Below, piece by piece: positions 2,823 to 60,975 of a stretch of 64,000 bases of DNA. A program made the position numbers and the translations under genes. The stretch lies in the sequence record MW349128.1; one strand, 5' to 3'. A model generated the notes under the pieces. It worked only from the letters and a program-made list of their open reading frames with translations. It was not told the origin of the DNA and did not search any database. Within the stretch, counting starts at the first letter, position 1. Each line of letters starts with the position of its first letter. Source of the DNA: Staphylococcus phage Machias.

Positions 2823-2975
2823 TGATATAATGTCAAAAGAATTTTAATTGCTGAGAAGATTATTAAATTAATCAGCATCGATCAAAATGATTGTTCAACG
2901 ACTAAATAAATTCACTCACTAATATGAGTTTGATATAGTCTAATCTTCATAGAAAAATCTCTATGAAGTTAATAT
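2823..2975 (+). mobile_element. group I (IA-type) intron, copy 1, in the beta-prime gene
   Basis: Canonical core elements are present: P TTAATTGCTGAGAAG (2845), Q AATCAGCATC (2870), R GTTCAACGACTAAATA (2893), S TGATATAGTCT (2931), and a P9-like hairpin CTTCATAGA/TCTATGAAG (2945-2968). Boundaries are approximate. Confidence 0.65.
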
Positions 2976-3166
2976 ACATGGCCGATTAAATAATAGTCGC
3001 TTTAAATTGAGAGATTTATAGAAAAGAATATTAATTGCTGAGAAGATTATTAAATTAATCAGCATCAAGTTAATACAATTTGTTCAACGACTAAATATAT
3101 TCTACCTTAAATGGTAATGATATAGTCTCGTCTATATGATAATATTTATATAGATTAAGATAAACG
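2976..3166 (+). mobile_element. group I intron, copy 2 (in tandem with copy 1), in the beta-prime gene
   Basis: P TTAATTGCTGAGAAG (3031), Q AATCAGCATC (3057), R GTTCAACGACTAAATA (3082), S GATATAGTCTCG (3118). The element ends before the in-frame YDGD exon. Boundaries are approximate. Confidence 0.6.
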
Positions 3167-3373
3167 TATGATGGTGATACTTTAAATATTATAGCACTAT
3201 TTTCAGAAGAACAATACGAACAGTTAAAAGTTCAAGATCCAGTAAATCAATTAATTTCATATAATGATGGATTATTTAATAGAACTTACTCGCTTAATAA
3301 AGACTCACAAATAGCTGTTTATTTACTAAATAACCCTAAATCAAAAAATGTAGGTATTAAAGCTAGTGAATAA
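3167..3373 (+). CDS. RNAP beta-prime-like N-terminal fragment, exon 2 (begins at the catalytic YDGD)
   Basis: An unlisted in-frame fragment reads (T)YDGDTLNIIALFSEEQYEQLKVQDPVNQLISYNDGLFNRTY...KASE*. It aligns to E. coli beta-prime [21 protein letters not shown]. It has no start codon and an in-frame TAA lies immediately upstream, so it must be joined by splicing. Confidence 0.6.
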   Translation, partial: YDGDTLNIIALFSEEQYEQLKVQDPVNQLISYNDGLFNRTYSLNKDSQIAVYLLNNPKSKNVGIKASE

Positions 3374-3444
3374 GTAATTTTAATGGATAATCTTTATGAT
3401 TATCCATTCTTATTATACTTTATAAATATGGAGGATTTTATAGA

Positions 3445-4020
3445 ATGATAAAATATAAAACGAATAATGAAAAGAATTTAATCGATATGGCTGAAAAATC
3501 GTTAGATATATTTTATGAAGAAATTTATAAAGAATTACTTAAGATTGATCAGGATTATATTAATCAAGATATTATTAATGATATTATAAAAGAATCTAAC
3601 ATTTTTAAAGATAATTCTAAAAAACATATTAAAAAGATTGTTAACAATGATATTAATAAAGTTGTAAGTGTAACTTTAACTACAACACATTATGAAATAT
3701 CTAGATTTTTATGTAATACTTTTGCTGAAAGACTTAATATGGTTTTAAATGCTTTATATAGAGTTAATAAAGGAACTTTAGGACATAAATATGAAAATGA
3801 ATCATTAGGAATAAGTGGTACTTATGATATAACTGATGGAATTAATACGTGGAAAAACGAATTAATTTCAGAAATATATAATACAACTAATTTCTTAGAA
3901 AATGTCATTAAAAGTAGAATTAGAAAATATATTAGAAGTAATTTTAATTATAAAAAATTAGATAATACTGGTGCTTATACATTTAACAATAATATTTTTA
4001 TTGATAGACTATTAAATTGA
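3445..4020 (+). CDS. hypothetical protein
   Basis: 191-aa ORF with a GGAGG RBS and no recognisable motifs. Confidence 0.6.
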   Translation: MIKYKTNNEKNLIDMAEKSLDIFYEEIYKELLKIDQDYINQDIINDIIKESNIFKDNSKKHIKKIVNNDINKVVSVTLTTTHYEISRFLCNTFAERLNMVLNALYRVNKGTLGHKYENESLGISGTYDITDGINTWKNELISEIYNTTNFLENVIKSRIRKYIRSNFNYKKLDNTGAYTFNNNIFIDRLLN

Positions 4021-4668
4021 ATGGAGAAATGCGACATGAATAAACGACAAAGAAAAAAGTTAGAAAAAGAAATTAAATTAGAAAACTCAAATAACGAAAA
4101 AATTATAGATTTGCCAAAAAATAATATTAAAAAGGATGATTCAAAAATGACTAAAAAACAAACAACTACTAAAGGTACACCAAAATTAACTAAAGAACAA
4201 GTTCACTTTATTGCTGGTTTAATCGATAAAGGACATGGTAATACTTACATTTTAAAAGAATTCAAAGAGAAATATGGAATTGAAAGAAAAACTCACACTA
4301 TTACTCATATTCGTAGAGCTGAATATTTTGGACATTTAACTGAAGATTATAGATTTGCTAAAGAAGGATATCCTACATTTAACGAATATAAGAAAATTTT
4401 ACGTGGAGACGATGTTAAACCAAGTAAAGTAGAATTAGCTGTAGAAACTGTAGTTGAATCACCTACAGTAGAGAAAACAAAAGAAGCTGCAGAAGGTCTT
4501 AAAAATAAAACAGAAGAAAAAGCTAAAGATATTAAATCTAAAATGCAAAATGTTCAAAAAGATCCTGAAACTGGTAAAGAATATCGTGATAATGTAGATA
4601 TTAAAAAAGCAGGAAAACAAGAATCTATCTTTGATAAGATTGTTCGAAAAATTATTAATCTATTATAA
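4021..4668 (+). CDS. hypothetical basic protein (start more likely at 4036)
   Basis: Lys-rich 215-aa ORF. The internal ATG at 4036 has a better GGAG spacing. The central region looks like a helix-turn-helix, which is weak evidence. Confidence 0.55.
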   Translation: MEKCDMNKRQRKKLEKEIKLENSNNEKIIDLPKNNIKKDDSKMTKKQTTTKGTPKLTKEQVHFIAGLIDKGHGNTYILKEFKEKYGIERKTHTITHIRRAEYFGHLTEDYRFAKEGYPTFNEYKKILRGDDVKPSKVELAVETVVESPTVEKTKEAAEGLKNKTEEKAKDIKSKMQNVQKDPETGKEYRDNVDIKKAGKQESIFDKIVRKIINLL

Positions 4669-4682
4669 TATAAAAGAAAGAA

Positions 4683-5744
4683 GTGTTAATCTACATGAGT
4701 AAATACGATTTAACTTTATACCATCATTTAAAACAGAATGTTAATCCATGTAGATTAACTTCTTCTCAAGATGAAACAATGGTTAGATGTCCATTTTGTG
4801 GTGATTCTAAAAAATCTAATAAATCAACACATATGTATATTCAAAATAATACACCATTTAAATATTTCTGTCAGAGATGTAATGCTTCAGGAGTTATGAA
4901 TAGTAAAGTATTAGAAATGCTAAACTCTAATCAAGCTGATATTGGTAGTTATATTAATAGTGAATATAATAATTATTTATCTAACTTAAATAGAAAATAC
5001 GGTAAAAGTTTTATAGATAGAAATACTAAAATATTAGATTACTATCCAGATCAATATAATGAATTAGAAATAGGAAAAATTAATTATATCAATGAAAGAT
5101 TAGGAATTAATATTAGTGAATCAGATATTGATTTATATAAACTGATATTAAATATAAATGATTTCTATAGAAAAAATAATTTTGATATGGACAATACGCT
5201 TCAAATAAATACATTAAATCAAAATTATTTTAGTTATATGTTAAATGATAGAAACACTATAAATTGTAGAAAAATGTTTAATGAAGTTACTGGTAGAAAA
5301 CACTTTAAACAAAAGATATTTAAAAATCTAGCAGAAGAAAGTAATAGATTTTATTCAATCACGAATAATTTGGCATTGGATCAAAATGTGTATAACATTC
5401 ATATAGCAGAAGGTTTCTTTGACATTATATCTATATTTAATCATATTCATAATAGGGAGATAAATGACAATGATTTATTTATAGCTAATAATGGAAAAGG
5501 ATATAAATTTGTATTTGATTATTTAAGTAAATTAGGTTTACTTAATATGAATATAAATATTTATTCAGATAAAGATGTTAAATTATCAGATTATAAAAGT
5601 TATAGAATGTTGGGCAATTCAATTGCAGTTAAACTTAATGATGCTAATATTTATTACAATTTACATGAAGAAGAAAAAGACTTTGGAGTTCCTAAAGAAA
5701 GAATTAAATTATCAGATCCAATATTATTTAGTAGTATTAAATAA
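4683..5744 (+). CDS. putative DNA primase (zinc ribbon plus TOPRIM-like)
   Basis: An N-terminal CPFCGDS...CQRCNASG Cys4 zinc ribbon of the kind found in phage primases is followed by IAEGFFDII and YSDKD acidic motifs consistent with a TOPRIM domain. The call rests on motifs only. Confidence 0.4.
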   Translation: MLIYMSKYDLTLYHHLKQNVNPCRLTSSQDETMVRCPFCGDSKKSNKSTHMYIQNNTPFKYFCQRCNASGVMNSKVLEMLNSNQADIGSYINSEYNNYLSNLNRKYGKSFIDRNTKILDYYPDQYNELEIGKINYINERLGINISESDIDLYKLILNINDFYRKNNFDMDNTLQINTLNQNYFSYMLNDRNTINCRKMFNEVTGRKHFKQKIFKNLAEESNRFYSITNNLALDQNVYNIHIAEGFFDIISIFNHIHNREINDNDLFIANNGKGYKFVFDYLSKLGLLNMNINIYSDKDVKLSDYKSYRMLGNSIAVKLNDANIYYNLHEEEKDFGVPKERIKLSDPILFSSIK

Positions 5745-5751
5745 GAAATAA

Positions 5752-5800
5752 ATATATATTATAAATAGGTAATGAGCAAATATTATAACGCTCATTACCT
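5752..5800 (+). promoter_or_regulatory. early-type promoter box TATATTATAA plus 11-bp-stem 5' hairpin
   Basis: ATATATATTATAAATAGG followed by AGGTAATGAGC...GCTCATTACCT. The SD and ATG are about 20 nt downstream. Confidence 0.45.
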
Positions 5801-5816
5801 ATATTAAATTATTAAA

Positions 5817-6344
5817 ATGGAGAGTGAAATGGATATGTCAAACAAACAAGAAATTTTTACATTTGAAGAAATATTTAAAGAATTAACGGATTTTCAAACA
5901 AGTAGTAAATTGGAAGAATTTCCTAATAAGAATATTTTAAAAGGTATATTAGAGAATATCAGTAATAAGAGAGATTTAGAAAATAATAAAATGTATATAA
6001 GTATCAATATTAATAATTCACTAAAAGAATTAAAGAACATTGAAGATAATATAATTGATATCTTCAAAGATAATGAAGTTAATGAAACTGATAAAGAGAA
6101 TATCAGTACTTTATTAAAAACATCAAGTGATATTAAAACAAATATTAATAAAGATGATTATAAATCAGTATTAATATTAGAAACATCTTTAGATGAAATT
6201 ATTAATAAAATTAATAAAGATGAATTTAATAATAAAGATCTTAAAGAACTTTATGTATCAACTTATAATAATTTATCAGTAACATTAATGTCATATAAAT
6301 TACTTAAATTAATAGACGGATTTGACAAAATTAAAAACGGATAA
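5817..6344 (+). CDS. hypothetical protein
   Basis: 175-aa ORF preceded by a TATATTATAA box, a hairpin and a GGAG. Confidence 0.6.
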   Translation: MESEMDMSNKQEIFTFEEIFKELTDFQTSSKLEEFPNKNILKGILENISNKRDLENNKMYISININNSLKELKNIEDNIIDIFKDNEVNETDKENISTLLKTSSDIKTNINKDDYKSVLILETSLDEIINKINKDEFNNKDLKELYVSTYNNLSVTLMSYKLLKLIDGFDKIKNG

Positions 6345-6358
6345 GGGTGAAATGAATT

Positions 6359-6976
6359 ATGAAAAATAAATTTCTAATATTTCAAGATAAAGACAATAAT
6401 AATTATTTATTATTGTCTAATTTTGAATTTAATAAAAAGGTTAAACCAGATTACACGCATGATATAAAAGATATTAATGAAGTTGTTAAATTCAATAAAA
6501 AAGGAAAAAATCAATTTAAAATGAGATTTGATTTCCATACAGGTCATATCGTTAGATTTAATGAATTTTACAATTATCTAGATAATATTGATAAAGACTT
6601 TAAAAATTCAAATGCTAAAATTATTGATAATATTATGAATTCTGATTTAAAATCAGTTGATAAAGTTAATATTATTTATACAGGAAATAAAACAGAAGAT
6701 AATGAAATAATTAAGACTAACTTATACTTTATTATACCTGTTGATATTGATACCATTGAATTAAACGAACATATTTCTAAAATAGATACTACTCTTATGA
6801 ATAAACGTTTAAATGATGTTTTTAAATCAGAGACGGTGAATCAGAAAATTCTTAATCTTAAACCAAGCGTAACAGAGATTAATATACTATCTAAACAGAG
6901 TAAAATTATAGATGAATATTTTAAAGATATTGATCAAGAATATAATTTTATTAATGAATTTAGTAAATCAGAATAG
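6359..6976 (+). CDS. hypothetical protein
   Basis: 205-aa ORF tightly packed after the previous gene. Confidence 0.6.
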   Translation: MKNKFLIFQDKDNNNYLLLSNFEFNKKVKPDYTHDIKDINEVVKFNKKGKNQFKMRFDFHTGHIVRFNEFYNYLDNIDKDFKNSNAKIIDNIMNSDLKSVDKVNIIYTGNKTEDNEIIKTNLYFIIPVDIDTIELNEHISKIDTTLMNKRLNDVFKSETVNQKILNLKPSVTEINILSKQSKIIDEYFKDIDQEYNFINEFSKSE

Positions 6977-6995
6977 AAAGAATGTGTTTTAAATT

Positions 6996-7721: not shown

Positions 7722-7763
7722 TGATCATTAATTTGATCATTACCTCTAATATTTTTTTTTTTT
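7715..7763 (+). terminator. rho-independent terminator
   Basis: GAGGTAATGATCA TTAATT TGATCATTACCTC perfect 13-bp stem followed by T13. Confidence 0.7.
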
Positions 7764-7785
7764 CGTAATTATCATTTATTTAAAT

Positions 7786-7830
7786 ATATATTATAATAAT
7801 GAAGATATATAATATATAATGATATATCTT
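7786..7830 (+). promoter_or_regulatory. TATATTATAAT box plus hairpin module
   Basis: TATATTATAATAATGAAG then AAGATATAT...ATATATCTT. Confidence 0.45.
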
Positions 7831-7855
7831 AAATAAATAAAAAGGAGATGAATTA

Positions 7856-8098
7856 ATGTTTATATTAGATATAATAATTGCTTTATTATATTATACGTTA
7901 ATACCAGTAGCGATAGCTTTTGGATCTTTTGAAATTTCTAAATATTTATCTACTTATTTAGAGAATTATATATTTAAAAGAAAATTAAGCTTAAGGACAA
8001 AACTTATATTAGCAATATCACTTGTAATGTTAACATCAATAGTAAAATCAATAGTTGAAATGCGAGTACATGTTGTATCTAGTTTTCTAGGTCTATAA
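7856..8098 (+). CDS. small membrane protein
   Basis: 80 aa with two predicted TM segments. It is preceded by a promoter-hairpin module and a GGAG. Confidence 0.55.
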   Translation: MFILDIIIALLYYTLIPVAIAFGSFEISKYLSTYLENYIFKRKLSLRTKLILAISLVMLTSIVKSIVEMRVHVVSSFLGL

Positions 8099-8120: not shown

Positions 8121-8144
8121 TAAGAATTAACGGAGGAATTTATT

Positions 8145-23585: not shown

Positions 23586-24197
23586 ATGGAAAAACAAAAT
23601 GCAATTCAAGAAGAGTTAGAACAACTTTTCGAACAAGCTCAGGAAGAAGCTCTTGAAGAACAATTCGAAAGTATCATTGAATCAGCAGATGAAGATGAAA
23701 GTAAATCTAAAGAAGATTCTGAAACAAAATCTGATGAAGATGATGATGAAACTTCAGTAGAAGAACAATTCGAAAGTATCATTGAATCAGCAGATGAAGA
23801 TGATTCTGAAGATGATGAAGATTCAGTTGAAGAGTCTGATGAAGATGATTCTGAAGATGATGAAGATTCAGTTGAAGAAGACGAAGATGAAGATTCTGAA
23901 GATGATGAGGATTCAGTTGAAGAAGACGAAGATGAAGATTCTGAAGATGATGAAGATTCATTAGAAGAAGAATTAGAACGTCTATTCGAAGAAAATGAAA
24001 AGCCTGAGATGGATGTTTCTAAACAAACAACTAAAGCTAACAAAATGAATTCAGAAAAATCTCCAGATTCTAAAGAACACCCAGAAGAAGATGTAGATAA
24101 AATTACTAAAGAAGATGAAGACGAAGAAGAAGATTCAGAAGATGAAGAAAGCACAAACGAATCATTAGAAGAATCATTAGATCGTATCTTTGGATAA
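23586..24197 (+). CDS. hyper-acidic Asp/Glu-rich repeat protein
   Basis: 203 aa, more than half D or E, built on a 45-bp tandem repeat (SEDDEDSVEEDEDED units). It has its own terminator. Confidence 0.55.
   Translation: MEKQNAIQEELEQLFEQAQEEALEEQFESIIESADEDESKSKEDSETKSDEDDDETSVEEQFESIIESADEDDSEDDEDSVEESDEDDSEDDEDSVEEDEDEDSEDDEDSVEEDEDEDSEDDEDSLEEELERLFEENEKPEMDVSKQTTKANKMNSEKSPDSKEHPEEDVDKITKEDEDEEEDSEDEESTNESLEESLDRIFG
23790..23960 (+). repeat. 45-bp tandem repeat (about 3.5 copies) inside the acidic-protein gene
   Basis: GATTCTGAAGATGATGAAGATTCAGTTGAAGA... repeats with minor variants. Confidence 0.7.
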
Positions 24198-24216
24198 TTA
24201 AAATTTAAAAATATAT

Positions 24217-24260
24217 CCCCTAACCTATTAATTTAGGTTAGGGGAATTTTATTATTTTTT
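24217..24260. terminator. bidirectional terminator between convergent genes
   Basis: CCCCTAACCTA/TAGGTTAGGGG 11-bp stem with T-runs on both sides. Confidence 0.65.
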
Positions 24261-24717: not shown

Positions 24718-27714
24718 TTAATTTCTACCATAAATATAAGAGTTTAAGAACCAAGCATTACCTTTTTGACCCGGTTTAACTCTAGCTCTAATAGCAATGG
24801 ATGCTATAGATTGGTGAGGAGTTCCCATATCTACTCTTATCTCTTTAAATTTAGTCTTAGTTACACTAGTTGAAGTATCTTTAGCTATAGAAATAGTTTT
24901 ATCAAAGATAACACCATTTTGTTCATTAAATGAATCTACTTTAATATCTATTCCACATTGTGGAGTAGCATACCAAATACCTATATGCAACCATCTAGTT
25001 TCATGTTGACCGTATAGAGTCATTGCACGTCTGAAATAACTACCTGTAGTTTTATCACTAAACATAAATGCATTACCAACATTTTTAAATCTAGGTGTAC
25101 CATTAGACATTAAATCTTGTACCCCTGGTTCTGAACGTACATAAGCTGTAGCAAACTGAGGCATACCATTGTATATAATATAACCTCCATCTGGACGTTT
25201 TATCGTCATACCACCTTTAACTTGTCCCATTGCATCCATCATAGTTTGGATAACTATATTTTTAGACATCAAATTAGTAATAGAAGCTTCTTTAATAGTA
25301 GCTCTACCATTTTGAATAATAACGTCTCCATCATTAATATTAACCATATTAGATTTAAGAGCAATACTATTAGGATCAATATCAAAAGTAGATAGCTTAT
25401 CATTTGAACTAGATGACATAGAAATACCGTTTGCTAATATAGATAATGCAGAACCCATTTTTTCCATTTTAGATTTATCTGCATTATATGTTTCTTTTGT
25501 TACAGATAAGTCTATTTTAGATTCAGTTTGACTGATTCTACTTTCCATATTAGTTATTCTAGCATTACTATCATTTATTGAAGGTTGCCAAGCAGTAGCT
25601 TTATTACCTTCTTCTACTTTTAATCCTTCTACATCTACAGATAATGGGAATGCACCATTACGATTAATAACCATTTCTATAAGATTACTAGCTGTGAAAC
25701 TGTCATTAGGTATAAATACAACTTCAATAAATGTTAATGATGTTGTATCGTTAAATGTAATACTTCTAGAATCACTTCCAATTTTATTACCATTAACAGA
25801 ACAAGAAGTTACAGAAGCATTAGGAATATTAATATCAACATTTGTAAGTGTCCCAGTTTTCTTTTCTAAATTAAAACCTAATACATGTTCACGTCTATTT
25901 CTCACTTTATCTAATTTAAATTTAATACCTTGTCCGTTAGCAGTTAAAGCTACATTCATTTCACCGTTCTCTTTATAAGTATTCTTATTTAGAGTTGCAG
26001 ATCCTATAGCTAAAATATTTTCATAACTTACTAAGTTCATTCCACCTACAGTGATTTTGCTAGCTTCATCAACTGCATATCCATTAGAAATATTATCTAC
26101 TGCCTTTTGAATAGATGATTTAATATTTGACTGTGCTTCATTATATCTTAAGAAATTTGTATTAAATTGAGCTACTTCTTCTTTAGTAGCTATTCCATCT
26201 GAAATTGTATTAGTTATATCTTGTAGTAATATATTATATTTTTCATTGAATAAATCATAATTATTTTTCAATTCAGTTTTAACACTATTTGTCATCATTT
26301 TATTTGCATATAATGAATTAAATATTTGATCTATTTCTTTTTTATCTTTATCAATGATATTCTTTTGCTTTTCAATAGCTATTTTTTCTGCATTAGATAT
26401 AATACCATCTTTAAAAGCTTCAGTAACAGTATCTCCTAATCCAATGGCATTCTCTTCAATATTATCTATTTTACTATTGATATCTTTGTTATAATTCTCT
26501 AACATATTATCAAAGTCTTCTGGAGCAGGAGTCCAGTCAGATGATACACTACCTCTTTCAACTTTAACACTAGATATATCAAATGTACCATTTAATTGAT
26601 TTAAATTAGTATCCACACCAATTAATAATTTTGTACTATTTCTTCCAGTTAAAGTTTGTTTATATACAAATGAATATCTATGCCATTCTTCATCAATATC
26701 TAAATATTTTTCAGAAATAGGTGTAGTATAATTACCTGAAGGATCAATAAAGTAACAATGATCAAGTCTATTAAATGTATCTGATCTAAAATCAAATGAA
26801 ATAGTATAAGTCTCATTATATTTTAAAGGGAAAGAATTATAGCTTATAGCTCCAACTTCTCCTTCTATTCCATCGGTATTAATAGTAAAATAACTCTTAC
26901 CGTTATTATCTTGACCGAATGTTAAAGCATTCTCTTTAGTTGAAGATAAACTTTCAGGGTATAATAACCAATTACCTTTAATAGCTAATGAATTTTCTAG
27001 TAAGTTTTTACCACCAATAGTAATTCCGTCAATTTCTGATTTAGAAACAGTCTGTTCTATTAAATCTGCAAACTGAGATACTTGACTTTCAAATTCAGTT
27101 ACTTTATTATTCATAGTATCTATATCAGCTCTAGTAACTGTATCTTGTAAAACTCTAGCTGTTTGTTCTCTAAATGATTCTAATTTAGTAATACTTTGAT
27201 TAATTTCATTAAGTGTGTAATCAGTAGCAATACTCTTAATAGACTCAGCTGTTTGTTCAACTTTAGTACTTAAATATTGTATAGATGATTCATATTTATT
27301 AACTTTAGACATAGTTGAAGAAATTGATTCTTCATTAGCTGAGACTCTGCCATTAAGGTTTTCTAAATTACCTTTAATATCAGAATCCCAACCACCTTCA
27401 GCTAATCTATCAATATAGTCAATACTTAATTTTTGATATTTTCTTAATTCTGTTTTAAGTGTATCAAGTGTAACATAATTAGAAAGATCTAAATCAATAT
27501 CATGACTACCATCTAAATTTCTTAATTTTTCTATTAAGTTATCATTTTCTTTATCAATATTATCCAGATTTTCATTAAGTACATTAATCTTATTCTTATT
27601 ATCTTCTGATAAATTCTTAATACTATCTTGATCTTGAACTAAAGAATTTATCTTAGACTTAATAGAATTCATCTCTTCACTTATTTGTAAGAGATTTTTA
27701 TCTTTATCTTCCAT
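24718..27714 (-). CDS. tail fibre or receptor-binding-like structural protein
   Basis: 998 aa with N-terminal coiled-coil heptads, then beta-rich modules. It contains the ERGSVSSDWTPAPEDFD linker motif that recurs in the 3084-aa protein. Confidence 0.5.
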   Translation of the reverse strand: MEDKDKNLLQISEEMNSIKSKINSLVQDQDSIKNLSEDNKNKINVLNENLDNIDKENDNLIEKLRNLDGSHDIDLDLSNYVTLDTLKTELRKYQKLSIDYIDRLAEGGWDSDIKGNLENLNGRVSANEESISSTMSKVNKYESSIQYLSTKVEQTAESIKSIATDYTLNEINQSITKLESFREQTARVLQDTVTRADIDTMNNKVTEFESQVSQFADLIEQTVSKSEIDGITIGGKNLLENSLAIKGNWLLYPESLSSTKENALTFGQDNNGKSYFTINTDGIEGEVGAISYNSFPLKYNETYTISFDFRSDTFNRLDHCYFIDPSGNYTTPISEKYLDIDEEWHRYSFVYKQTLTGRNSTKLLIGVDTNLNQLNGTFDISSVKVERGSVSSDWTPAPEDFDNMLENYNKDINSKIDNIEENAIGLGDTVTEAFKDGIISNAEKIAIEKQKNIIDKDKKEIDQIFNSLYANKMMTNSVKTELKNNYDLFNEKYNILLQDITNTISDGIATKEEVAQFNTNFLRYNEAQSNIKSSIQKAVDNISNGYAVDEASKITVGGMNLVSYENILAIGSATLNKNTYKENGEMNVALTANGQGIKFKLDKVRNRREHVLGFNLEKKTGTLTNVDINIPNASVTSCSVNGNKIGSDSRSITFNDTTSLTFIEVVFIPNDSFTASNLIEMVINRNGAFPLSVDVEGLKVEEGNKATAWQPSINDSNARITNMESRISQTESKIDLSVTKETYNADKSKMEKMGSALSILANGISMSSSSNDKLSTFDIDPNSIALKSNMVNINDGDVIIQNGRATIKEASITNLMSKNIVIQTMMDAMGQVKGGMTIKRPDGGYIIYNGMPQFATAYVRSEPGVQDLMSNGTPRFKNVGNAFMFSDKTTGSYFRRAMTLYGQHETRWLHIGIWYATPQCGIDIKVDSFNEQNGVIFDKTISIAKDTSTSVTKTKFKEIRVDMGTPHQSIASIAIRARVKPGQKGNAWFLNSYIYGRN

Positions 27715-50140: not shown

Positions 50141-50182
50141 CTAAAAATATATCCCAATACCTAAATTAATAGGTATTGGGAT
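50141..50182 (-). terminator. terminator downstream of the 50187-50900 gene
   Basis: ATCCCAATACCT/AGGTATTGGGAT 12-bp stem, with an A-run on the + strand giving a U-run for the - strand transcript. Confidence 0.6.
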
Positions 50183-50186
50183 TTTA

Positions 50187-50900
50187 TTATCCGAAAAATA
50201 ATTTTTTTCTATTAGAATTATAAATAGAGTTATTTTCCATTTTTTCAACTAATTCTCTTCTTTTTTCTCTAGCATCTCTTAAATCATCCATATTTAGATT
50301 TAATTCACCAAAAGTAGTTTGTAAATTTTGAAATCTACCTCTCATAGAGTATAATGACATTTGAACATCATATGAAGCTAATTCTAAAAAGTAATCATGC
50401 ATATTATTTGGTATTGAACCAAAATGTTTATCATGATAAGTATTTGCAATTATTAATAGATTAGTTGTACTCATAACAGATCCATTCATTATCTCTATTT
50501 TATTAGGATGAAGATATCTAAATGTAGATGGATTTAAATTAATAGCCATTAAATCTGCCATCATTTGAGAGTCAATAGGTGAACCCATCATAAAACCTGC
50601 ATAAGGACTCATACTACCAGCATACCCAGTTAAATTAGAAATATTGTTATTAGCACCAATCACTCTATTAATATTAACTATTGGATTTGGTGAATCAATA
50701 TAATAAACATTCTGAGTTCCTTCTACTTTATCTTCAGGCTTTACTATTATTCTTTCTTGTTTAGGATGAAATTTACTAAAAGTAGGAATTGTAAATCTTT
50801 CTACTGTTTTAATAATCTCATCAGGATTTAGTTCTAACTCATTAAACAGAAATCCTGTATCACGTTCTATATAATTAAGTACTTCTGTATTAGTTATCAT
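50187..50900 (-). CDS. hypothetical protein (morphogenesis-region gene)
   Basis: 237 aa, directly downstream of the protease gene, followed by a 12-bp-stem terminator. Confidence 0.5.
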   Translation of the reverse strand: MITNTEVLNYIERDTGFLFNELELNPDEIIKTVERFTIPTFSKFHPKQERIIVKPEDKVEGTQNVYYIDSPNPIVNINRVIGANNNISNLTGYAGSMSPYAGFMMGSPIDSQMMADLMAINLNPSTFRYLHPNKIEIMNGSVMSTTNLLIIANTYHDKHFGSIPNNMHDYFLELASYDVQMSLYSMRGRFQNLQTTFGELNLNMDDLRDAREKRRELVEKMENNSIYNSNRKKLFFG

Positions 50901-51252: not shown

Positions 51253-51425
51253 CTTGATGTGATGGAATTACACGTTATCTTAACTATATGATTTTCATAT
51301 AGACGAGACTATATCTTCCTAATTTATATTAGGTAATATATTTAGTCGTTGAACGGAATTTAATCCGATGCTGATTATCTTAATAAAGATTTCCAGCAAT
51401 TAATATTATTTATACTAAGCAATAA
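51253..51425 (-). mobile_element. group I intron, copy 5 (minus orientation)
   Basis: Reverse-complement core elements: S AGACGAGACTATATC (51301), R TATTTAGTCGTTGAAC (51338), Q GATGCTGATT (51366), P CCAGCAATTAA (51393). Confidence 0.6.
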
Positions 51426-51624
51426 TTTTTTACCCAGTCATACGTACATCTTAGCTATATGGTTTCCATATAGACGAGACTATATCATACTCTTAGTAAG
51501 AGCGAATATATTTAGTCGTTGAACAACTTGTATTAAGTTGATGCTAATTGGCTTAATTAAACTTCTTAGCAATTAATATTCTTTTTCATTATATATCACT
51601 ATATAAAGCTGCTATAATTTAACA
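51426..51624 (-). mobile_element. group I intron, copy 4 (minus orientation)
   Basis: S (51471), R (51507), Q GATGCTAATT (51540), P CTTAGCAATTAATATT (51565). Its 5' leader TATAGTGATATATAATG matches copy 1. Confidence 0.6.
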
Positions 51625-51884
51625 GATTAATCTTAAAGGTTTAGTAACTTCTACTTCACCATTAGGTTTTCTTTCTATTTTACTAAAACCACGCATTGAG
51701 AAAGATACATCAGATTTTTGTCCAATTAAACCTTTCATATCCTTACCAGCTGATGTTTGAGCTGTTTCTACTTCTCCCATTAATTTATTACCATTCCACC
51801 AAGTTCTAGTGATAATATGAGAAATATTACGTTGATCAATATACATTTGACGTTTAGGTTCATCACTTAAAGGATGACCTGCAA
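51625..51884 (-). CDS. prohead protease (T4 gp21-like), exon 2
   Basis: AGHPLSDEPKRQMYIDQRNISHIITRTWWNGNKLMGEVE...DVSFSMRGFS resembles T4 gp21 ELNHP...HRITKLWWDGNTLMGEV...VSSRGMGS (catalytic His and Ser contexts). The gp21 comparison is from memory. Confidence 0.5.
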
Positions 51885-52033
51885 ATTATTATTCTTTATT
51901 ATTTTAATAAAGATTAGACTATATCATCTAGGTTATATATTTAGTCGTTGAACAACTTGTATTAAGTTGATGCTGATTACTTTAAATAAGATTTCAGCAA
52001 TTAATATAATTTAACGTGAGCCATTTTAACCTA
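51885..52033 (-). mobile_element. group I intron, copy 3 (minus orientation)
   Basis: S AGACTATATC (51915), R ATATTTAGTCGTTGAAC (51936), Q GATGCTGATT (51969), P TCAGCAATTAATA (51994). Confidence 0.6.
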
Positions 52034-52258
52034 AAACTCACCATAAAAAGTTCTTCTTGCTAATTTTTCTTGTACTACTGGACTATCTAAACCACTTTGG
52101 ATAACATCTTTACGATAAACACGACCATTACGGTTTTGTCTATCAGCTTCTTGTAACTCAGCAATGAATCTAACTGATTTATTATTATCTTGAACTACTT
52201 CTGGTTGAGAAGTTGTATTAGATTCATTAATAATGTAAGCTTTAATATCTTTAGACAT
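52034..52258 (-). CDS. prohead protease (T4 gp21-like), exon 1
   Basis: MSKDIKAY...NGRVYRKDVIQSGL...RRTFYGEF. The reading frame continues as AGHPL after the intron. Confidence 0.5.
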
Positions 52259-57078: not shown

Positions 57079-57092
57079 TAAGAAAGAAGTGA

Positions 57093-57737
57093 ATGAAGAC
57101 TATGGCTATAACAAAATTAAAGAAAAAAATTTATTACGATTATAAAACTAATAACGTAAGCTTTTTAAGAGTTGCTAAAGAACTTAAAGATAATAATATA
57201 CAAAATTATGGTCTACCATTAACTCTATATGATAAGAAATTAATTGGCGTTGATCCTTGGGATGAAGATTTAGATAATGAAATGAAAACTCGTGTTATTA
57301 GGGAAGCTAAACTTAATATATGGTTTTATTTAAGAGAAGTTATCAGAGTTCCAGTTCCAGGTGGTAAGGTAATGTATGAACTTCATAGAGGTAACTTAGC
57401 TATGACGTTTTGTATGCTGCATAATTTAGATACTGCAATAATGTTACCACGTCAGCACTATAAAACATATTCTGCAGTATGTTATTATTCATGGATTATG
57501 TTATTGGTAGGTAATAACTATACAATGTTATTTACACATAAATCATACTCGGACACTACTGAAAACCTTAAAAGATTAAAAAATCTATTCAAAGAGAAGT
57601 GTTTACCTGAATATGTATTAGCTAACTTTGGAGATAAAAATGATAGAGATAAAATTAATGAATTTTCTTTAGCAAGTAATAACAACACAATAAAAACAGT
57701 ATCACCTCCAACAAATGCTGAGAGTAAAATACGTGCT
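57093..57737 (+). CDS. terL: large terminase (T4 gp17-like), exon 1 (ATPase N-terminal part)
   Basis: Walker A-like LPRQHYKTYS against T4 SRQLGKT. IKTVSPPTNAESKIRA against T4 IGAYASSPDAVRGNSFA. The annotated stop at 57755 lies inside the intron leader. The exon end is approximate. Confidence 0.6.
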
Positions 57738-57884
57738 CTCATTAAACTCTATTAACTGCTGAAAAAGATACTAAACCAATCAGCATCAATCAAATTGATT
57801 GTTCAACGACTAAATATAGAGATAATTAATATTATAAGATATAGTCTAGTGTGTATGAATATCATACAATGTATTACGGCAAAC
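57738..57884 (+). mobile_element. group I intron, copy 6 (terL)
   Basis: P TTAACTGCTGAAAAAG (57752), Q AATCAGCATC (57778), R GTTCAACGACTAAATA (57801), S AAGATATAGTCTAG (57837). Confidence 0.6.
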
Positions 57885-59118
57885 AAAGCAGGAAGAGGTA
57901 GCACCGTATGTAGATGCAGTGCATAAAGATTTTTAATTGCTGGAAGACTAATAATGAAGTTAATCAGCATCACTTTAATTAGTGTTCAACGACTAAATAA
58001 AATCAATTTTAATAATTTTTACTGTTAACATTCCTTTATCAGTACGATAACGGAGGGATAAAATGCCTAAAGGTGTTAAAAGTAAAGAAAAATTCATAGA
58101 ACAAAAAAATAAAACTTTTAAAGAAATAAAAGATATCAATGGAGATAAATTTGAAATACTGGGAGAGTATAAAAATTCTAAAGAACCAATTAAATGTCAT
58201 TGTAATATATGTGATAGAGATTTTTTCTTACCTACTGAAAAACTAAGATTAAAAAGAAAATTCTGTAATAGAAAAGATTGTAGATATTCAGAAAAACCCA
58301 AGAATTCTAAAGGTAAAGAAACTTTTTTAATAGAATTAAAAGATAAGTTCGGATTTAATTATACTTATATTGAAGGATTCAATGGAATGAATAAAAAGTG
58401 TAGATTCCGTTGTGGAAAATGTGGAAATATAAGATATTTTGCAAAGCCTTCTACTCTAATGGATAAAAGAAAGAAGTATAATTCAGTAAACTGTAACAGA
58501 TGTATAAATAATGAAAATTATATCATATTAGATAGTCAAGAATTATCTAAAAAGACAACAGAAGAGTTTCAAGGTGAATTAGATATGATATTTGGATATA
58601 ATAAATTTAATGTGTTAACTGAATATACTAGGAGCAAAGATTATATCTATTTGAAGAGTAATGACTGTGGACACAAATTTAAAACGAGACCAGATGATAT
58701 ACTTAAAAGAAAAAGATGTAGTGTATGTTCTAAAAGTATAGGAGAAATTGCCATCATTGAATTACTTCAAGAGAATAATGTAGAATATGAGAATGAAGTT
58801 ACTTTTGAAGGATCTAGTTTTAGATTTGATTTTTATTTTAAAAAAATAAATACTGTAGTTGAAGTAGATGGAAAAGGTCATATAAAAGGTTATGGAAATT
58901 TCATTAATGATAAAAGAAACAAAAGCAAAAGAACACCTGAAGATATAAAAAAATTAGATAATGAAAAAGATGAATTTATAAGAAGCAAAGGAATAAATAT
59001 GATACGTCTCCCTTACCAGAATAGAATAAATGAAGAATTAATTATCCCTATGAAAAAATTATTAAAATTATGATATAGTCTGATCTGCATGGATTATCAT
59101 GTAGTTTAACGTAAATGA
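57885..59118 (+). mobile_element. group I intron, copy 7 (terL), carrying a homing endonuclease ORF in P8
   Basis: P TTAATTGCTGG (57934), Q AATCAGCATC (57962), R GTTCAACGACTAAATA (57985). The HEG ORF spans 58063-59073. S TGATATAGTCTGA (59071) overlaps the HEG stop codon. P9 hairpin CTGCATG/CATGTAG follows. Confidence 0.6.
58063..59073 (+). CDS. intron-encoded homing endonuclease, EDxHD/Vsr-like (PD-(D/E)xK) with tandem CxxC zinc ribbons
   Basis: 336 aa with GGAGGG RBS. Three C-x2-C...C-x2-C pairs. C-terminal VVEVDGKGHIKGY...MIRLPY fits the E-x-D-G-x-x-H Vsr/DUF559-like catalytic core (compare I-Bth0305I). Confidence 0.5.
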   Translation: MPKGVKSKEKFIEQKNKTFKEIKDINGDKFEILGEYKNSKEPIKCHCNICDRDFFLPTEKLRLKRKFCNRKDCRYSEKPKNSKGKETFLIELKDKFGFNYTYIEGFNGMNKKCRFRCGKCGNIRYFAKPSTLMDKRKKYNSVNCNRCINNENYIILDSQELSKKTTEEFQGELDMIFGYNKFNVLTEYTRSKDYIYLKSNDCGHKFKTRPDDILKRKRCSVCSKSIGEIAIIELLQENNVEYENEVTFEGSSFRFDFYFKKINTVVEVDGKGHIKGYGNFINDKRNKSKRTPEDIKKLDNEKDEFIRSKGINMIRLPYQNRINEELIIPMKKLLKL

Positions 59119-59202
59119 CCTATGGTTTGGCTTGATGAGTGGGCGTTTATACCGCATAATCAAGTAATGTTTGAAGCGATGAGTAAAAAGGCTCCATCTT
59201 TA
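59119..59202 (+). CDS. terL: terL micro-exon (Walker B)
   Basis: (P)MVWLDEWAFIPHNQVMFEAMSKKAPSL aligns to T4 gp17 [23 protein letters not shown]. An in-frame TGA lies immediately upstream and a TAG at the end. Boundaries are approximate. Confidence 0.55.
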
Positions 59203-59355
59203 TAGAAATATAGATGATGAATAATATTAACTGCTGAAAAGTTTAAAAACCAATCAGCATCATTAAATAATGTTCAACGACTAAATTTATTAAATCTTAA
59301 AAAGATTATGATATAGTCTGATCTGCATGGATTATCATGCAGCTAACATAAATGA
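59203..59355 (+). mobile_element. group I intron, copy 8 (terL)
   Basis: P TTAACTGCTGAAAAG (59227), Q AATCAGCATC (59252), R GTTCAACGACTAAAT (59272), S TGATATAGTCTGA (59309), P9 CTGCATGGATTATCATGCAG. Confidence 0.6.
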
Positions 59356-59442
59356 CCAGCAATAAGTACAGCTTCAAGAATTGCAAAAGAAAATGGTTCT
59401 CCTTATGGACTTCTTATCACAACTACACCTAAAATGACTGGG
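59356..59442 (+). CDS. terL: terL micro-exon (ATPase motif III region)
   Basis: TAISTASRIAKENGSPYGLLITTTPKMTG against T4 ISSGRRSKIIITTTPNGLN. It is bounded by in-frame stops. Confidence 0.55.
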
Positions 59443-60975
59443 TGAAGATAAATTAAAATTTATCTTAAGGACTTTATTAATTGCTGAAAGGTCCTTAGAG
59501 CTTAATGAGCTACAACGTGACTGGCAACAGTGAGCGTGATATGCTTAAAAATCATTAAGATTGGAAAATCAGCAGCTAATTTTCAATTTAATAAATTATT
59601 AAATCAATAATGAACAACTCTTTATACAAAAGATGTAGGAGTTGGTAATTTTGGATTTTTATGAAAAATTAAATAAAAAATTTGATAACAGTATAATAAC
59701 AAAAGAAAAATATATAAACGGCAATGAAAAGATTAAATTCTATTGTAAAAATTGTAAAAATTATTTTTATTCTAAACCTAGAAAAATTATTGAATCATCT
59801 TATAAATCATGTCATTTATGTAGGAAAAGGGAAAAAGAAAATATATTTAGGAATAATCTCATTAATATGATAAATAAAGAAATATATGAAATTATTGAAA
59901 TGAAAGATCCTATAAAAAATAATGAAAAATTTTCTTTAAAACATAAAGAATGTGGAAATATCTTTTCTATATCAGTGAGTAATTTTAAAAAAGGAAGAAA
60001 ATGCCCATATTGCTCAAATAAGCCTATGAAAAGGGATCAAAATTTCTTTTTAGAAAAAATAAATAATATTGATTCAAGTTTCTTAAAAGAATATGAATTA
60101 AAAAGCAATTATATAAGCGTTAACGAAAATATTAAAATTAAACATAAAGAATGTGGAAATATCTTTAATACTACCCCTAATAGAATTTATAGAGGTAATA
60201 GATGTAGTATGTGTTCACATAAATCTGATAAATATAATTTTAAAGAGGTAAAGAGTATAATAGAAAAAGATGGAAAATTTAAACTTTTATCTAATAATTA
60301 TATAAATAATAAATATAAATTAAAAATAAAATGTCTTAACTGTGGTAATATACAAGAGAAAAGTTTAGTTACATTTCAAGATAAAAGAAATAGAAAATGT
60401 ATATGTGAAAAATATTCTTTACCAATTCGTTATATAACAAATTTTTTAATAGATAAAAATATAAATTTTGAGCTAGAAAAAAGATTTGATAATTGTAGAA
60501 ATATTAGACCTTTACCCTTCGATATTTTTATAAATGATTTTAATATTCTAATTGAATATGATGGGGAACAACATTTTAAACCAATATATGGTATAGAAAA
60601 ACTCAATAAAACTAAAATAAATGATGAAATAAAAAATAATTTTTGTAATAAAGAAGGAATAGAATTAATTAGAATAAACTGTTATGATAATTATGAAGAT
60701 AAAATTGAAAATTTAGTTCAACGACTATCGAAAGTTGAGTATACATCGTGAGGATATATACAATATAAATGAGTAGAGTACAGCCAAGCGGTTAGTTTTT
60801 AAGTGATATTAGCTTAATATAATTCTATTAAATGGAAACATAAAGACGTGTATATTAACACATATACGTAAGATATAGTCTCAACGTTTAGGGAAAACCT
60901 AAAGAAGTTCATAAGAGAACTGGTATAGATTAGCGATCTATATTGAAGATTTTGAGTACTCTCGACACATCTCAA
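59443..60975 (+). mobile_element. group I intron, copy 9 (terL), carrying a second homing endonuclease ORF
   Basis: P TTAATTGCTGAAAGG (59477), Q AAATCAGCAGC (59567), HEG 59642-60751, S AAGATATAGTCTC (60870). The R element was not confidently located. The 3' end is set where the T4-aligned exon (GQFFFQQMNEAAQ against LNHFYDIWTAA) starts. Confidence 0.5.
59642..60751 (+). CDS. intron-encoded homing endonuclease, EDxHD/Vsr-like, paralog of 58063-59073
   Basis: 369 aa with TTG start after AGGAG. Repeated KHKECGNIF...C.YC zinc-ribbon units. C-terminal ILIEYDGEQHFKP...LIRIN has the E-x-D-G-x-x-H core. Confidence 0.5.
   Translation: MVILDFYEKLNKKFDNSIITKEKYINGNEKIKFYCKNCKNYFYSKPRKIIESSYKSCHLCRKREKENIFRNNLINMINKEIYEIIEMKDPIKNNEKFSLKHKECGNIFSISVSNFKKGRKCPYCSNKPMKRDQNFFLEKINNIDSSFLKEYELKSNYISVNENIKIKHKECGNIFNTTPNRIYRGNRCSMCSHKSDKYNFKEVKSIIEKDGKFKLLSNNYINNKYKLKIKCLNCGNIQEKSLVTFQDKRNRKCICEKYSLPIRYITNFLIDKNINFELEKRFDNCRNIRPLPFDIFINDFNILIEYDGEQHFKPIYGIEKLNKTKINDEIKNNFCNKEGIELIRINCYDNYEDKIENLVQRLSKVEYTS

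What the first reader, a model, noticed from the sequence alone, without database searches (positions are those of the whole stretch)
2823..60975. At least nine copies of one group IA intron family, inserted only in essential genes and mostly as tandem pairs
All nine cores share near-identical P (TTAAYTGCTGARAAG), Q (AATCAGCATC), R (GTTCAACGACTAAATA) and S ((A)GATATAGTCT) elements. Several also share a 5' leader (TTATAG...TGATATAATG). Five of the nine form head-to-tail pairs: 2823-3166, 51253-51624 and 57738-59118. Nine related introns in about 12 kb of target sequence, three per gene, suggests recent intra-genomic spread, or a twintron-like organisation in which the second intron sits at the very end of the first.
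Basis: seen in the sequence. Interest (0 to 1): 0.75.

Follow-up and report, generated by a model that had tools for sequence, protein, structure and literature searches.

The report
Nine miniature group I introns, micro-exons
Three essential genes of a Staphylococcus jumbo phage are interrupted by nine group I introns, most only 153-182 bases long. Neighbouring introns are separate elements split by real exons of 6, 11 and 29 bases, not nested introns; introns in these genes were already known in this phage group.

Summary
Nine group I intron cores lie in three genes of an AR9-like Staphylococcus jumbo phage (closest relative AH12): RNA polymerase beta' (2 introns), prohead protease (3) and large terminase (4).

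Intron-less homologues fix every boundary. Removing the nine elements restores open reading frames of 436, 280 and 679 aa that are colinear with those homologues. All nine end in G. Eight follow a U that pairs with an internal guide sequence. One (C3) follows a G.

Seven are ORF-less mini-introns of 153-182 nt. C2 has the same kind of core plus a homing-endonuclease gene in its P8 loop. C4 is a larger, different intron with a second endonuclease gene.

The "tandem pairs" are not twintrons. They are independent introns separated by micro-exons of 6, 11 and 29 nt that encode conserved active-site residues. The 6-nt exon GCCGAT supplies the first Asp of DxDGD.

Copies within the genome are 63-82% identical. 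Same-site copies in other phages are 87-95% identical. The spread is therefore old, not recent.

Rfam scores are 25-45 bits, below the cut-off of 50. Covariation in P3, P4, P6, P8 and the guide sequences is strong. Splicing was not tested.

The parts
1701..2798 (+). RNA polymerase beta' (N-terminal part) exon 1; ends ...GGT ATG GGT (GMG)
   Evidence: tblastn of intron-less S6_2210, aa 1-366, 88% identity
2799..2980 (+). Intron A1 (182 nt). P1 is GGGU/GCCU. P2 is CATTATA-GTGA-TATAATG. P3 is GAATTT/AAATTC. The last base is G.
   Evidence: RF00028 26.8 bits; R1 107.4 bits; boundaries; P1 and P3
2981..2986 (+). Micro-exon GCCGAT (6 nt) = Ala-Asp. This Asp is the first Asp of the catalytic DxDGD motif (ADYDGD).
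   Evidence: S6 has GMGADYDGD uninterrupted; the spliced ORF is 436 aa with no stops; the same micro-exon is in AH12
2987..3166 (+). Intron A2 (180 nt). P1 is CGAU/GUCG. P3 is GAATAT/ATATTC. The last base is G.
   Evidence: RF00028 38.8 bits; R1 109 bits
3167..3373 (+). RNA polymerase beta' exon 3 (YDGDTLNI... to the stop codon)
   Evidence: tblastn aa 369-437, 93% identity
52036..52258 (-). Prohead core scaffold/protease exon 1 (ends ...GGTGAGT)
   Evidence: tblastn of the SA1 protease, aa 1-74
51882..52035 (-). Intron B1 (154 nt). P1 is GUGAGU/GCUCAC. There is no P2. The P8 position holds only CCTAGAT.
   Evidence: RF00028 32.6 bits; R1 97.3 bits
51622..51881 (-). Protease exon 2 (260 nt)
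   Evidence: tblastn aa 75-161
51443..51621 (-). Intron B2 (179 nt). P1 is CUGU/GCAG. The L2 loop is GTGA and the L9 loop is GAAA.
   Evidence: RF00028 45.5 bits; R1 115.3 bits
51432..51442 (-). Micro-exon TATGACTGGGT (11 nt) = Tyr-Asp-Trp plus the first 2 nt of a Val codon
   Evidence: SA1 has LICYDWVVIPSHQ; the spliced ORF is 280 aa
51273..51431 (-). Intron B3 (159 nt). P1 is ACUGGGU/GCUUAGU. There is no P2.
   Evidence: RF00028 41.6 bits; R1 110 bits
50924..51272 (-). Protease exon 4
   Evidence: tblastn aa 166-281
57093..57725 (+). Terminase large subunit exon 1 (ends ...GAGAGT)
   Evidence: tblastn of SA1 TerL
57726..57878 (+). Intron C1 (153 nt). P1 is UGAGAGU/GCUCUCA. There is no P2. 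P3 is CTCTAT/ATAGAG.
   Evidence: RF00028 25.3 bits; R1 96.6 bits
57879..57907 (+). Mini-exon of 29 nt (ANKAGRGST plus the first 2 nt of a Val codon)
   Evidence: Matches SA1 aa 210-219
57908..59117 (+). Intron C2 (1210 nt). It has a mini-type core, with a homing-endonuclease ORF inside the loop of a 15-bp P8.
   Evidence: R1 68.2 bits for the 5' part and 18.9 bits for the 3' part
58063..59073 (+). Intron-encoded endonuclease ORF (336 aa)
   Evidence: phrog_559 'HNH endonuclease', E = 3.9e-36
59118..59183 (+). TerL exon 3 (66 nt; PMVWLDEWAF..., which I read as the Walker B region)
59184..59354 (+). Intron C3 (171 nt). The reading frame requires the 5' exon to end in G (ATGAG|UAAAAAGG). The last base of the intron is G.
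   Evidence: RF00028 37.3 bits; R1 84.8 bits; identical junction in PB50
59355..59430 (+). TerL exon 4 (76 nt)
59431..60954 (+). Intron C4 (1524 nt), a larger and different group I intron. P1 is CACCU/GGGUG. It has a 10-bp P2 and a long P5 extension. An ORF lies between Q and R. R is GTTCAACGACTATCGA and S is AAGATATAGTCTC.
   Evidence: partial R1 hits only; an intron with an ORF occupies the same site (after P266) in PALS_2
59642..60751 (+). Intron-encoded endonuclease ORF (369 aa). Its 3' end overlaps element R.
   Evidence: phrog_559, E = 2.7e-59; weak matches to a zinc-finger domain and DUF2726
60955..62190 (+). TerL exon 5

Best explanation
What is there. The window carries nine independent group I introns in three essential genes of an AR9/PBS1-like Staphylococcus jumbo phage. 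Seven are ORF-less miniature ribozymes of 153-182 nt. An eighth (C2) has the same core plus a homing-endonuclease gene in its P8 loop. The ninth (C4) is a larger intron of another lineage with an endonuclease gene between Q and R.

Architecture of the mini-introns:
- a 4-7 bp P1, formed between the last exon bases and an internal guide sequence about 9-15 nt into the intron, with a U.G pair at the splice site;
- an optional P2;
- a 6-bp P3;
- a 6-bp P4;
- a 3-5 bp P5;
- a roughly 5-bp P6;
- P7 of GACUA/UAGUC with a bulged C;
- a short P8 directly after P3';
- usually one P9 hairpin;
- a terminal G.

How it most likely works (inferred). Each intron is excised from the mRNA by the standard two-step guanosine-initiated transesterification. 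This joins the exons and restores the reading frames.

The close pairs. The pairs are two introns that inserted independently at sites a few codons apart inside active-site motifs. That leaves micro-exons of 6, 11 and 29 nt. Each micro-exon serves both as the 3' exon of the upstream intron and as the P1 substrate of the downstream intron. Either order of splicing would work.

How the family spreads (inferred). It spreads among related phages by homing or recombination at occupied sites. Occasionally it moves to new sites whose last 4 nt match the guide sequence, in the manner of reverse splicing.
For: Shown here:
- Removing the nine elements gives ORFs of 436, 280 and 679 aa with no internal stops, colinear with intron-less S6 and SA1 homologues of 436, 280 and 677 aa.
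- All nine end in G. Eight follow a U.
- The guide sequence changes with the target: GGGU/GCCU, CGAU/GUCG, GUGAGU/GCUCAC, ACUGGGU/GCUUAGU, UGAGAGU/GCUCUCA and others.
- P3 is fully paired in 19 of 21 family members, using 12 different 5'-strand sequences. Swapped partners pair at 3.3 of 6 positions and are never perfect.
- On 31 cores, 97.5% of cells pair, against 69.9% in shuffles and 29-52% with slid partners. Fifteen of 22 pairs show compensatory changes.
- RF00028 is the only significant Rfam match in each of the four local scans that covered the seven ORF-less introns, with local E-values from 3e-10 to 9e-5.
- Site occupancy differs between relatives, including single occupancy of paired sites.
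- The ORFs in C2 and C4 match phage homing-endonuclease families.
- A2 and the protease-D163 introns share the guide GTCGCTT and the target CGAT|. LY01 P242 and P266 share the guide GGGCTT and the target GCCT|, and are 82% identical.

From the literature:
- Introns in RNA polymerase, protease and TerL genes of this phage clade are reported by Korn et al. (bioRxiv 10.1101/2020.12.14.422802).
- Tandem group I introns flanking short exons are known from Twort orf142 (23 nt) and Coxiella 23S rRNA (34 nt) (PMC10136302).
Against: - There are no RNA data, so splicing is inferred.
- Rfam scores are below the gathering threshold. Scans of 3.3 kb or more give no hits.
- C3 needs a 5' exon ending in G, while the U that could form the U.G pair lies one base into the intron.
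- B1 has essentially no P8, and C1 has a barely paired P5.
- The introns are 22-27% G+C and lack peripheral stabilising domains, so autonomous folding is not assured.
- The alignment used for pair counts was fitted to the model's structure, which inflates the percentage paired.
Confidence: 0.85

Rival explanations
1. Twintron-like organisation: the second core sits inside or at the very end of the first. The two must then be removed in a fixed order as one nested unit.
For: Cores lie only 170-190 nt apart. A1 and A2 share an identical 35-nt P4-P5 segment.
Against: The sequence between the cores encodes conserved residues that intron-less homologues have: AD, YDWV and ANKAGRGSTV. Each member has its own P1 with its own guide sequence, its own U/G boundaries and its own P3. 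Relatives have one member without the other.
Confidence: 0.02
2. Non-splicing dispersed repeats that have broken the genes into pseudogenes or separately translated fragments.
For: GenBank records of AH12, PB50 and LY01 annotate the pieces as separate proteins. Rfam at its gathering score finds nothing.
Against: The three genes are essential. Excision at U|...G| restores the exact frame three times over. The guide sequences co-vary with the exons. The micro-exons encode catalytic residues. Homologous introns in AR9 have experimentally determined mature mRNAs, according to Korn et al..
Confidence: 0.03
3. The mini-introns are degenerate ribozymes that are spliced in vivo only with help. The helper could be a phage or host protein cofactor or RNA chaperone. 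Alternatively a neighbouring intron could help by forming a composite ribozyme. This modifies the best explanation rather than replacing it.
For: The introns are very small: 153-182 nt here and 127 nt for one in LY01. P5 is tiny and there are no peripheral domains. B1 lacks P8. G+C is 22-27%. The non-coding part of Bastillevirinae phage introns averages 350 +/- 108 nt (PMC11878797). P3 strands of adjacent introns differ by only one base in pairs A and B, so hybrid folds are conceivable. Tandem similar introns can form a single large ribozyme (PMC10136302).
Against: The whole catalytic core (P3-P8, the G-binding P7, J8/7) is conserved and co-varies. GNRA loops in L2 and L9 of several members could give tertiary contacts like those of Azoarcus; that comparison is my inference. 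No maturase-like ORF is present in seven of the nine.
Confidence: 0.3
4. Recent burst of intra-genomic duplication in this particular phage.
For: Intron-rich relatives hold many matching places per genome: AH12 at least 22, LY01 at least 31, PB50 16-21. S6, PALS_2, DC4 and SA1 show no place beyond the homologous gene itself and are absent from the hits of an intron-only query. Short identical segments are shared between neighbours (A1/A2 in P4-P5; C2/C3 in P9).
Against: Paralogues in the window are 63-82% identical. Same-site copies in other phages are 87-95% identical and cluster by site, not by genome. The identical segments fit local gene conversion better than recent whole-intron duplication.
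Confidence: 0.12

Closest known systems
Group I introns of AR9-like jumbo phages (Bacillus AR9; Staphylococcus MarsHill, Madawaska, Machias)
   Same: Same phage clade and the same target genes: RNA polymerase subunits, prohead protease and TerL. Site occupancy varies between phages, and some introns carry homing endonucleases (Korn et al.).
   Different: In the text I could read, that work predicts exon numbers from protein alignment. It could not reconstruct TerL. It does not describe ribozyme size, structure or micro-exons. Micro-exons of 29 nt here, and 14 nt in Madawaska and LY01, would account for the TerL failure.
Staphylococcus phage Twort orf142 introns I2/I3 (subgroup IA2)
   Same: Several similar group I introns in one phage gene, two of them flanking a short exon (23 nt). 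A Staphylococcus phage host (PMC10136302).
   Different: From memory, the Twort introns are about 250 nt with P7.1/P7.2. Here the cores are 153-182 nt with no room for P7.1/P7.2, and the exons go down to 6 nt. Exon skipping is documented in Twort and is untested here. BLAST similarity to Twort/K-like phage introns is limited to about 40 nt around S and P9.
Azoarcus pre-tRNA-Ile intron (IC3), the classic small self-splicing group I intron
   Same: A minimal architecture without large peripheral domains. Short hairpins with GNRA loops (L2, L9) could make tertiary contacts.
   Different: Azoarcus is about 205 nt and G+C-rich (from memory, not checked here). These introns are 153-182 nt at 22-27% G+C, sit in protein-coding genes, and their self-splicing is untested.
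Mini-exons between organellar group I/II introns (fungal mitochondrial cox1 and others)
   Same: Exons shorter than about 4 codons flanked by self-splicing introns occur regularly and defeat annotation tools (PMC10352661).
   Different: Those are organellar and often depend on maturases. I found no report of exons of 11 nt or less between group I introns in a phage. The search covered open-access text only.

Membership tests
Group I intron (Rfam RF00028) | Conserved core helices P3, P4, P6, P8 with P/Q/R/S elements in the canonical order | tested here: met
   R, P, Q and S are present in all nine. On 31 cores 97.5% of cells pair, and 15 of 22 pairs show compensatory change.
Group I intron (Rfam RF00028) | P3/P7 pseudoknot with the guanosine-binding P7 | tested here: met
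   P3 co-varies, with 12 distinct 5'-strand sequences and 19 of 21 perfect. P7 GACUA/UAGUC with a bulged C is invariant, so it is consistent but gives no covariation evidence. G binding itself was not tested.
Group I intron (Rfam RF00028) | 5' splice site after a U that forms a U.G pair with an internal guide sequence (P1) | tested here: met
   Met for 8 of the 9 window introns and for 13 of 13 relatives examined. Not met for C3, whose exon ends in G.
Group I intron (Rfam RF00028) | The last intron nucleotide is G (omega-G) | tested here: met
   9 of 9 in the window and 13 of 13 in relatives.
Group I intron (Rfam RF00028) | Score at or above the Rfam gathering threshold (50 bits) | tested here: not met
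   The seven ORF-less introns score 25.3-45.5 bits. There are no hits in scans of 3.3 kb or more.
Group I intron (Rfam RF00028) | Guanosine-dependent self-splicing | not testable with these tools
   This needs in vitro transcription with GTP, or RT-PCR of infected cells.
Subgroup IA (IA1/IA2) | Extra helices P7.1/P7.2 between P3' and P8 | tested here: not met
   In the eight mini cores P8 starts directly after the 6-nt P3'. The stretch between P3' and S is 7-20 nt in the seven ORF-less introns, and in C2 it is a 15-bp P8 stem. C4 has about 140 nt between R and S, and its status is unresolved.
Twintron | One intron inserted within another, with no exon sequence between them | tested here: not met
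   The 6, 11 and 29 nt between the cores encode conserved residues and are needed to restore the ORFs.
Mobile (homing) group I intron | An intron-encoded homing endonuclease | tested here: inconclusive
   C2 and C4 carry ORFs that match phrog_559 and phrog_9084 endonuclease families. Seven introns have no ORF. Presence/absence polymorphism between phages is observed. Endonuclease activity was not tested.
[quoted passage not shown] | [quoted passage not shown] | tested here: inconclusive
   The arrangement is met, with exons of 6, 11 and 29 nt. Exon skipping cannot be tested here.

The most novel reading that the evidence does not exclude
These may be the smallest natural self-splicing group I ribozymes: 153-182 nt here, and 127 nt without P2 or P9 in LY01 TerL. 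They would splice accurately across exons as short as 6 nt, where one hexamer is both the 3' exon of one ribozyme and the P1 substrate of the next. The family would colonise active-site codons by guide-sequence-directed (reverse-splicing-like) transposition. Similar arrays of up to five in a row in an RNA polymerase-like gene occur in uncultivated jumbo phages.
Probability: 0.35. Interest if true: 0.7.

Novelty: new variant of a known kind. Interest (0 to 1): 0.5.

Why it matters
- Annotation. It gives exact gene models for three essential genes that public records of this phage clade leave fragmented or mislabelled. It also explains why the large terminase of MarsHill-like phages could not be reconstructed.
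- Detection. Genome-scale Rfam scans miss this intron family entirely, so intron loads of AT-rich jumbo phages are probably underestimated.
- Ribozyme biology. If the mini-introns self-splice, they would be attractive minimal group I ribozymes. The 6-nt and 11-nt exons would be a natural test of how two adjacent ribozymes share one short substrate without skipping it. Skipping the 6-nt exon would delete a catalytic aspartate of the RNA polymerase.

Tried and rejected
- Whole-window Rfam scans at the gathering score and at E up to 10 gave no group I hit. So did a 3.3-kb scan. Only scans of 0.9 kb or less recover RF00028.
- MAFFT alignments A1 and A2 put P3' out of register in 8 of 21 sequences. 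RNAalifold therefore found only P4, P6, P7 and P9. I scored P3 at a fixed register in a script and on the model-fitted alignment A3.
- A weak model hit at 26764-26809 (18.8 bits, E = 0.45) has no P/Q/R/S elements and was rejected.
- For C3 I considered three alternatives to a 5' exon ending in G:
  1. Cleavage after the U at 59184 with the terminal G. This shifts the frame and runs into a stop at the next junction.
  2. Cleavage after that U with a terminal A. This would give Ser in place of an Arg that is conserved even in the divergent AH12 TerL.
  3. Cleavage after GCGAT. This would delete a residue of the conserved MRP.
  None is better than G at -1 with a terminal G.
- The AH12 match to window 2000-4500 spans about 186 nt more than the query, which suggested a third intron there. 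The intron region itself has the same length in both (368 nt), so the extra sequence lies elsewhere.
- Literature searches for 'smallest group I intron' found nothing usable. Landthaler & Shub 1999 (PMC22036) is not held.
- One strand folding failed on the length limit and was not repeated. MFE folding cannot represent the P3/P7 pseudoknot.


Full report
**Origin of the window.** The window is from a Staphylococcus jumbo phage of the AR9/PBS1-like group. The region 2000-4500 is 97.7% identical to phage AH12. The prohead protease region is 99.3% identical to AH12. Other relatives are PB50, LY01, Madawaska, MarsHill, S6, PALS_2, DC4 and SA1.

**Checking the observation.**
- The R element occurs nine times at up to 3 mismatches, against 1.19 expected by chance. 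A P element lies next to each.
- Rfam at its gathering score finds nothing in the 64 kb. A permissive scan at E up to 10 also finds nothing.
- Scans of short stretches make RF00028 (group I intron) the only significant match in each stretch that covered an ORF-less intron:

| Intron | RF00028 bits (cut-off 50) |
|---|---|
| A1 | 26.8 |
| A2 | 38.8 |
| B1 | 32.6 |
| B2 | 45.5 |
| B3 | 41.6 |
| C1 | 25.3 |
| C3 | 37.3 |

- All of these scores are below the cut-off.
- A 3.3-kb scan again found nothing. The speed filters lose these small, AT-rich elements.

**Boundaries.** I aligned three intron-less homologues to the window with tblastn: S6_2210 (RNA polymerase beta', N-terminal part), the SA1 prohead protease and SA1 TerL. 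The sequence at each break was then read directly. This gives nine introns:

| Intron | Gene | Coordinates | Length (nt) | Note |
|---|---|---|---|---|
| A1 | RNA polymerase beta' | 2799-2980 | 182 | |
| A2 | RNA polymerase beta' | 2987-3166 | 180 | |
| B1 | protease (minus strand) | 52035-51882 | 154 | |
| B2 | protease (minus strand) | 51621-51443 | 179 | |
| B3 | protease (minus strand) | 51431-51273 | 159 | |
| C1 | TerL | 57726-57878 | 153 | |
| C2 | TerL | 57908-59117 | 1210 | carries an ORF |
| C3 | TerL | 59184-59354 | 171 | 5' exon ends in G |
| C4 | TerL | 59431-60954 | 1524 | carries an ORF |

- Every intron ends in G. Eight follow a U.
- Joining the exons gives ORFs of 436, 280 and 679 aa without internal stops. 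They are colinear with homologues of 436, 280 and 677 aa.

**The 'tandem pairs'.** Between A1 and A2 lie six bases, GCCGAT. Intron-less S6 reads ...GMG-AD-YDGDTLN.... The hexamer therefore encodes Ala-Asp, and this Asp is the first Asp of the beta' DxDGD motif. That motif is universally conserved and required for catalysis (PMC7598289).
- Between B2 and B3 lie 11 bases, TATGACTGGGT. They encode YDW and part of a Val in the conserved LICYDWVVIPSHQ.
- Between C1 and C2 lie 29 bases that encode ANKAGRGST(V).
- These are real exons, so the pairs are not twintrons.
- Each member of a pair has its own P1, its own guide sequence and its own P3.

**Relatives show independent insertions**.
- In beta', the window and AH12 have introns after GMG and after AD. 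PB50 has one ORF-containing intron after YDG. LY01 has one intron elsewhere in the gene.
- In the protease, LY01 occupies the sites after C161 and D163, which leaves a 6-nt exon TACGAT. Madawaska and PB50 occupy only the D163 site. The window occupies C161 and V165.
- In TerL, LY01 and Madawaska have a 14-nt exon between introns after G214 and within V219.

**Structure.** From 21 family members (8 from the window, 13 from relatives) I derived the fold.
- P3 is the 6 nt before TAAYTGC paired with the 6 nt after GACTAAAT.
- P3 is perfect in 19 of 21 members and uses 12 different 5'-strand sequences. Swapped partners pair at 3.3 of 6 positions and are never perfect.
- I built a covariance model of the core, R1. 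It finds eight full cores in the window at 68-115 bits and no further copy.
- On 31 cores aligned to the model, 97.5% of cells pair. The figure is 69.9% in shuffles and 29-52% with slid partners. Fifteen of 22 pairs show compensatory changes in P3, P4, P6 and P8. This alignment was fitted to the structure, which inflates the percentage paired.
- P7 is invariant, so it adds no covariation evidence.
- Guide sequences follow their targets: GGGU/GCCU, CGAU/GUCG, GUGAGU/GCUCAC, ACUGGGU/GCUUAGU, UGAGAGU/GCUCUCA. For elements that sit at different sites, this is strong evidence of function.
- The introns are stripped down. P5 has 3-5 bp. P8 follows P3' directly, so there is no P7.1/P7.2. P2 is absent in B1, B3 and C1.
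- C2 carries its ORF inside the loop of a 15-bp P8.
- C4 is different. It has a long P5 extension, an ORF between Q and R whose end overlaps R, and about 140 nt between R and S.
- Both ORFs match phage homing-endonuclease families.

**Age and spread.**
- Copies within the window are 63-82% identical. Same-site copies in other phages are 87-95% identical and cluster by site. The family diversified before these phages split, so recent intra-genomic spread is not supported.
- Short identical segments are shared between neighbours: P4-P5 in A1/A2 and P9 in C2/C3. These suggest local gene conversion.
- Two sets of related introns at different sites share both the guide sequence and the last four target bases. 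A2 and the protease-D163 introns share GTCGCTT and CGAT|. LY01 P242 and P266 share GGGCTT and GCCT|. This fits guide-directed ectopic insertion, but the sample is small.
- BLAST finds many matching places in some genomes: at least 22 in AH12, at least 31 in LY01, 16-21 in PB50, 10-15 in Madawaska and 8-13 in MarsHill. S6, PALS_2, DC4 and SA1 show no place beyond the homologous gene itself and are absent from the hits of an intron-only query.
- Beyond this clade, an exact R-N(12-42)-S pattern hits at least 120 IMG/VR stretches, including contigs of 200-400 kb and giant-virus bins.
- The model finds dense arrays in those contigs. One example is five cores within about 920 nt in L064, inside an RNA polymerase beta'-like gene where a 17-nt exon encodes FDGDTV.

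**Comparison with the literature.**
- Introns in RNA polymerase, protease, TerL, DNA polymerase and gyrB genes of MarsHill-like phages are reported. The TerL mature peptide could not be reconstructed. Micro-exons explain that failure.
- The DC4 study found no introns with Rfam.
- Tandem group I introns around short exons are known from Twort orf142 (23 nt, with exon skipping) and Coxiella 23S rRNA (34 nt).
- Mini-exons below four codons occur regularly in mitochondrial genes.
- The non-coding part of Bastillevirinae phage introns averages 350 +/- 108 nt. The mini-introns here are about half that size.
- From memory, the Azoarcus intron (about 205 nt) is the usual 'smallest self-splicing' example. 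I could not verify this here.

**Open points.**
- C3 requires a 5' exon ending in G. The junction is identical in PB50, and the Arg it encodes is conserved.
- B1 and its LY01 orthologue have only CCTAGAT where P8 should be.
- No splicing data exist for any of the nine.

**Verdict.** The twintron and recent-burst readings are wrong. The kind of element is known in this phage clade. The miniature architecture and the 6-11 nt exons are the noteworthy part.

Noticed in passing
window 59176-59200 (also L005 3677-3700): Intron C3 has a non-canonical 5' splice site. The reading frame and the conserved Arg241 require the exon to end in G (ATGAG|TAAAAAGGCTCC). The U that could pair with the guide G is the first intron base. 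PB50 has the identical junction.
   Followed up: partly
window 51914-51935 (minus strand); L012 about 760-770: Intron B1 and its LY01 orthologue have only CCTAGAT between P3' and S, so there is essentially no P8. The PB50 orthologue at the same site has a normal P8 hairpin. The P1 loop of B1 contains TAGGTT, which is complementary to AACCTA at the P8 position. Whether that matters is unknown.
   Followed up: partly
L008 3250-3376 (LY01 TerL): A family member of only 127 nt, with no P2 and no P9 hairpin (S is followed by AAAATAG|). It sits upstream of a 14-nt exon CGTGGTTCTACTGT.
   Followed up: partly
L064 12383-13302 (IMG/VR contig 3300045988_181237, 269 kb): Five compact group I cores within about 920 nt in an RNA polymerase beta'-like gene of an uncultivated jumbo phage. 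A 17-nt exon TTTGATGGTGATACTGT encodes FDGDTV of the catalytic motif. Similar arrays occur in L041, L049 and L036.
   Followed up: partly
IMG/VR loci L018, L021, L034, L035 and other GVMAG contigs: Exact R and S elements with the same short spacing also occur in giant-virus metagenome bins. The compact core type may reach well beyond phages of Firmicutes.
   Followed up: no
L015 1250-1908; L002, L005, L007, L008 and L012 generally: Public annotations leave these genes fragmented or mislabelled. In PB50, protease exon 1 is called 'terminase large subunit' and exon 2 'homing endonuclease'. AH12 and LY01 list the exons as separate hypothetical proteins.
   Followed up: yes
L007 5079-5186 and 9988-10096 (AH12): Further family members: one at the TerL P266 site (tblastn bridged it as a gap) and one between the two annotated nrdE fragments.
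   Followed up: partly
L014 650-1820 (MarsHill protease): MarsHill has a different, larger intron with a LAGLIDADG endonuclease 4 nt upstream of the B1 site (after TATGGT). Unrelated introns therefore target the same few codons.
   Followed up: no
window 24196-24252 and 50146-50190: G+C-rich perfect hairpins followed by T runs produced weak, spurious Rfam matches (NsiR1, mir-3036). They look like intrinsic terminators.
   Followed up: no
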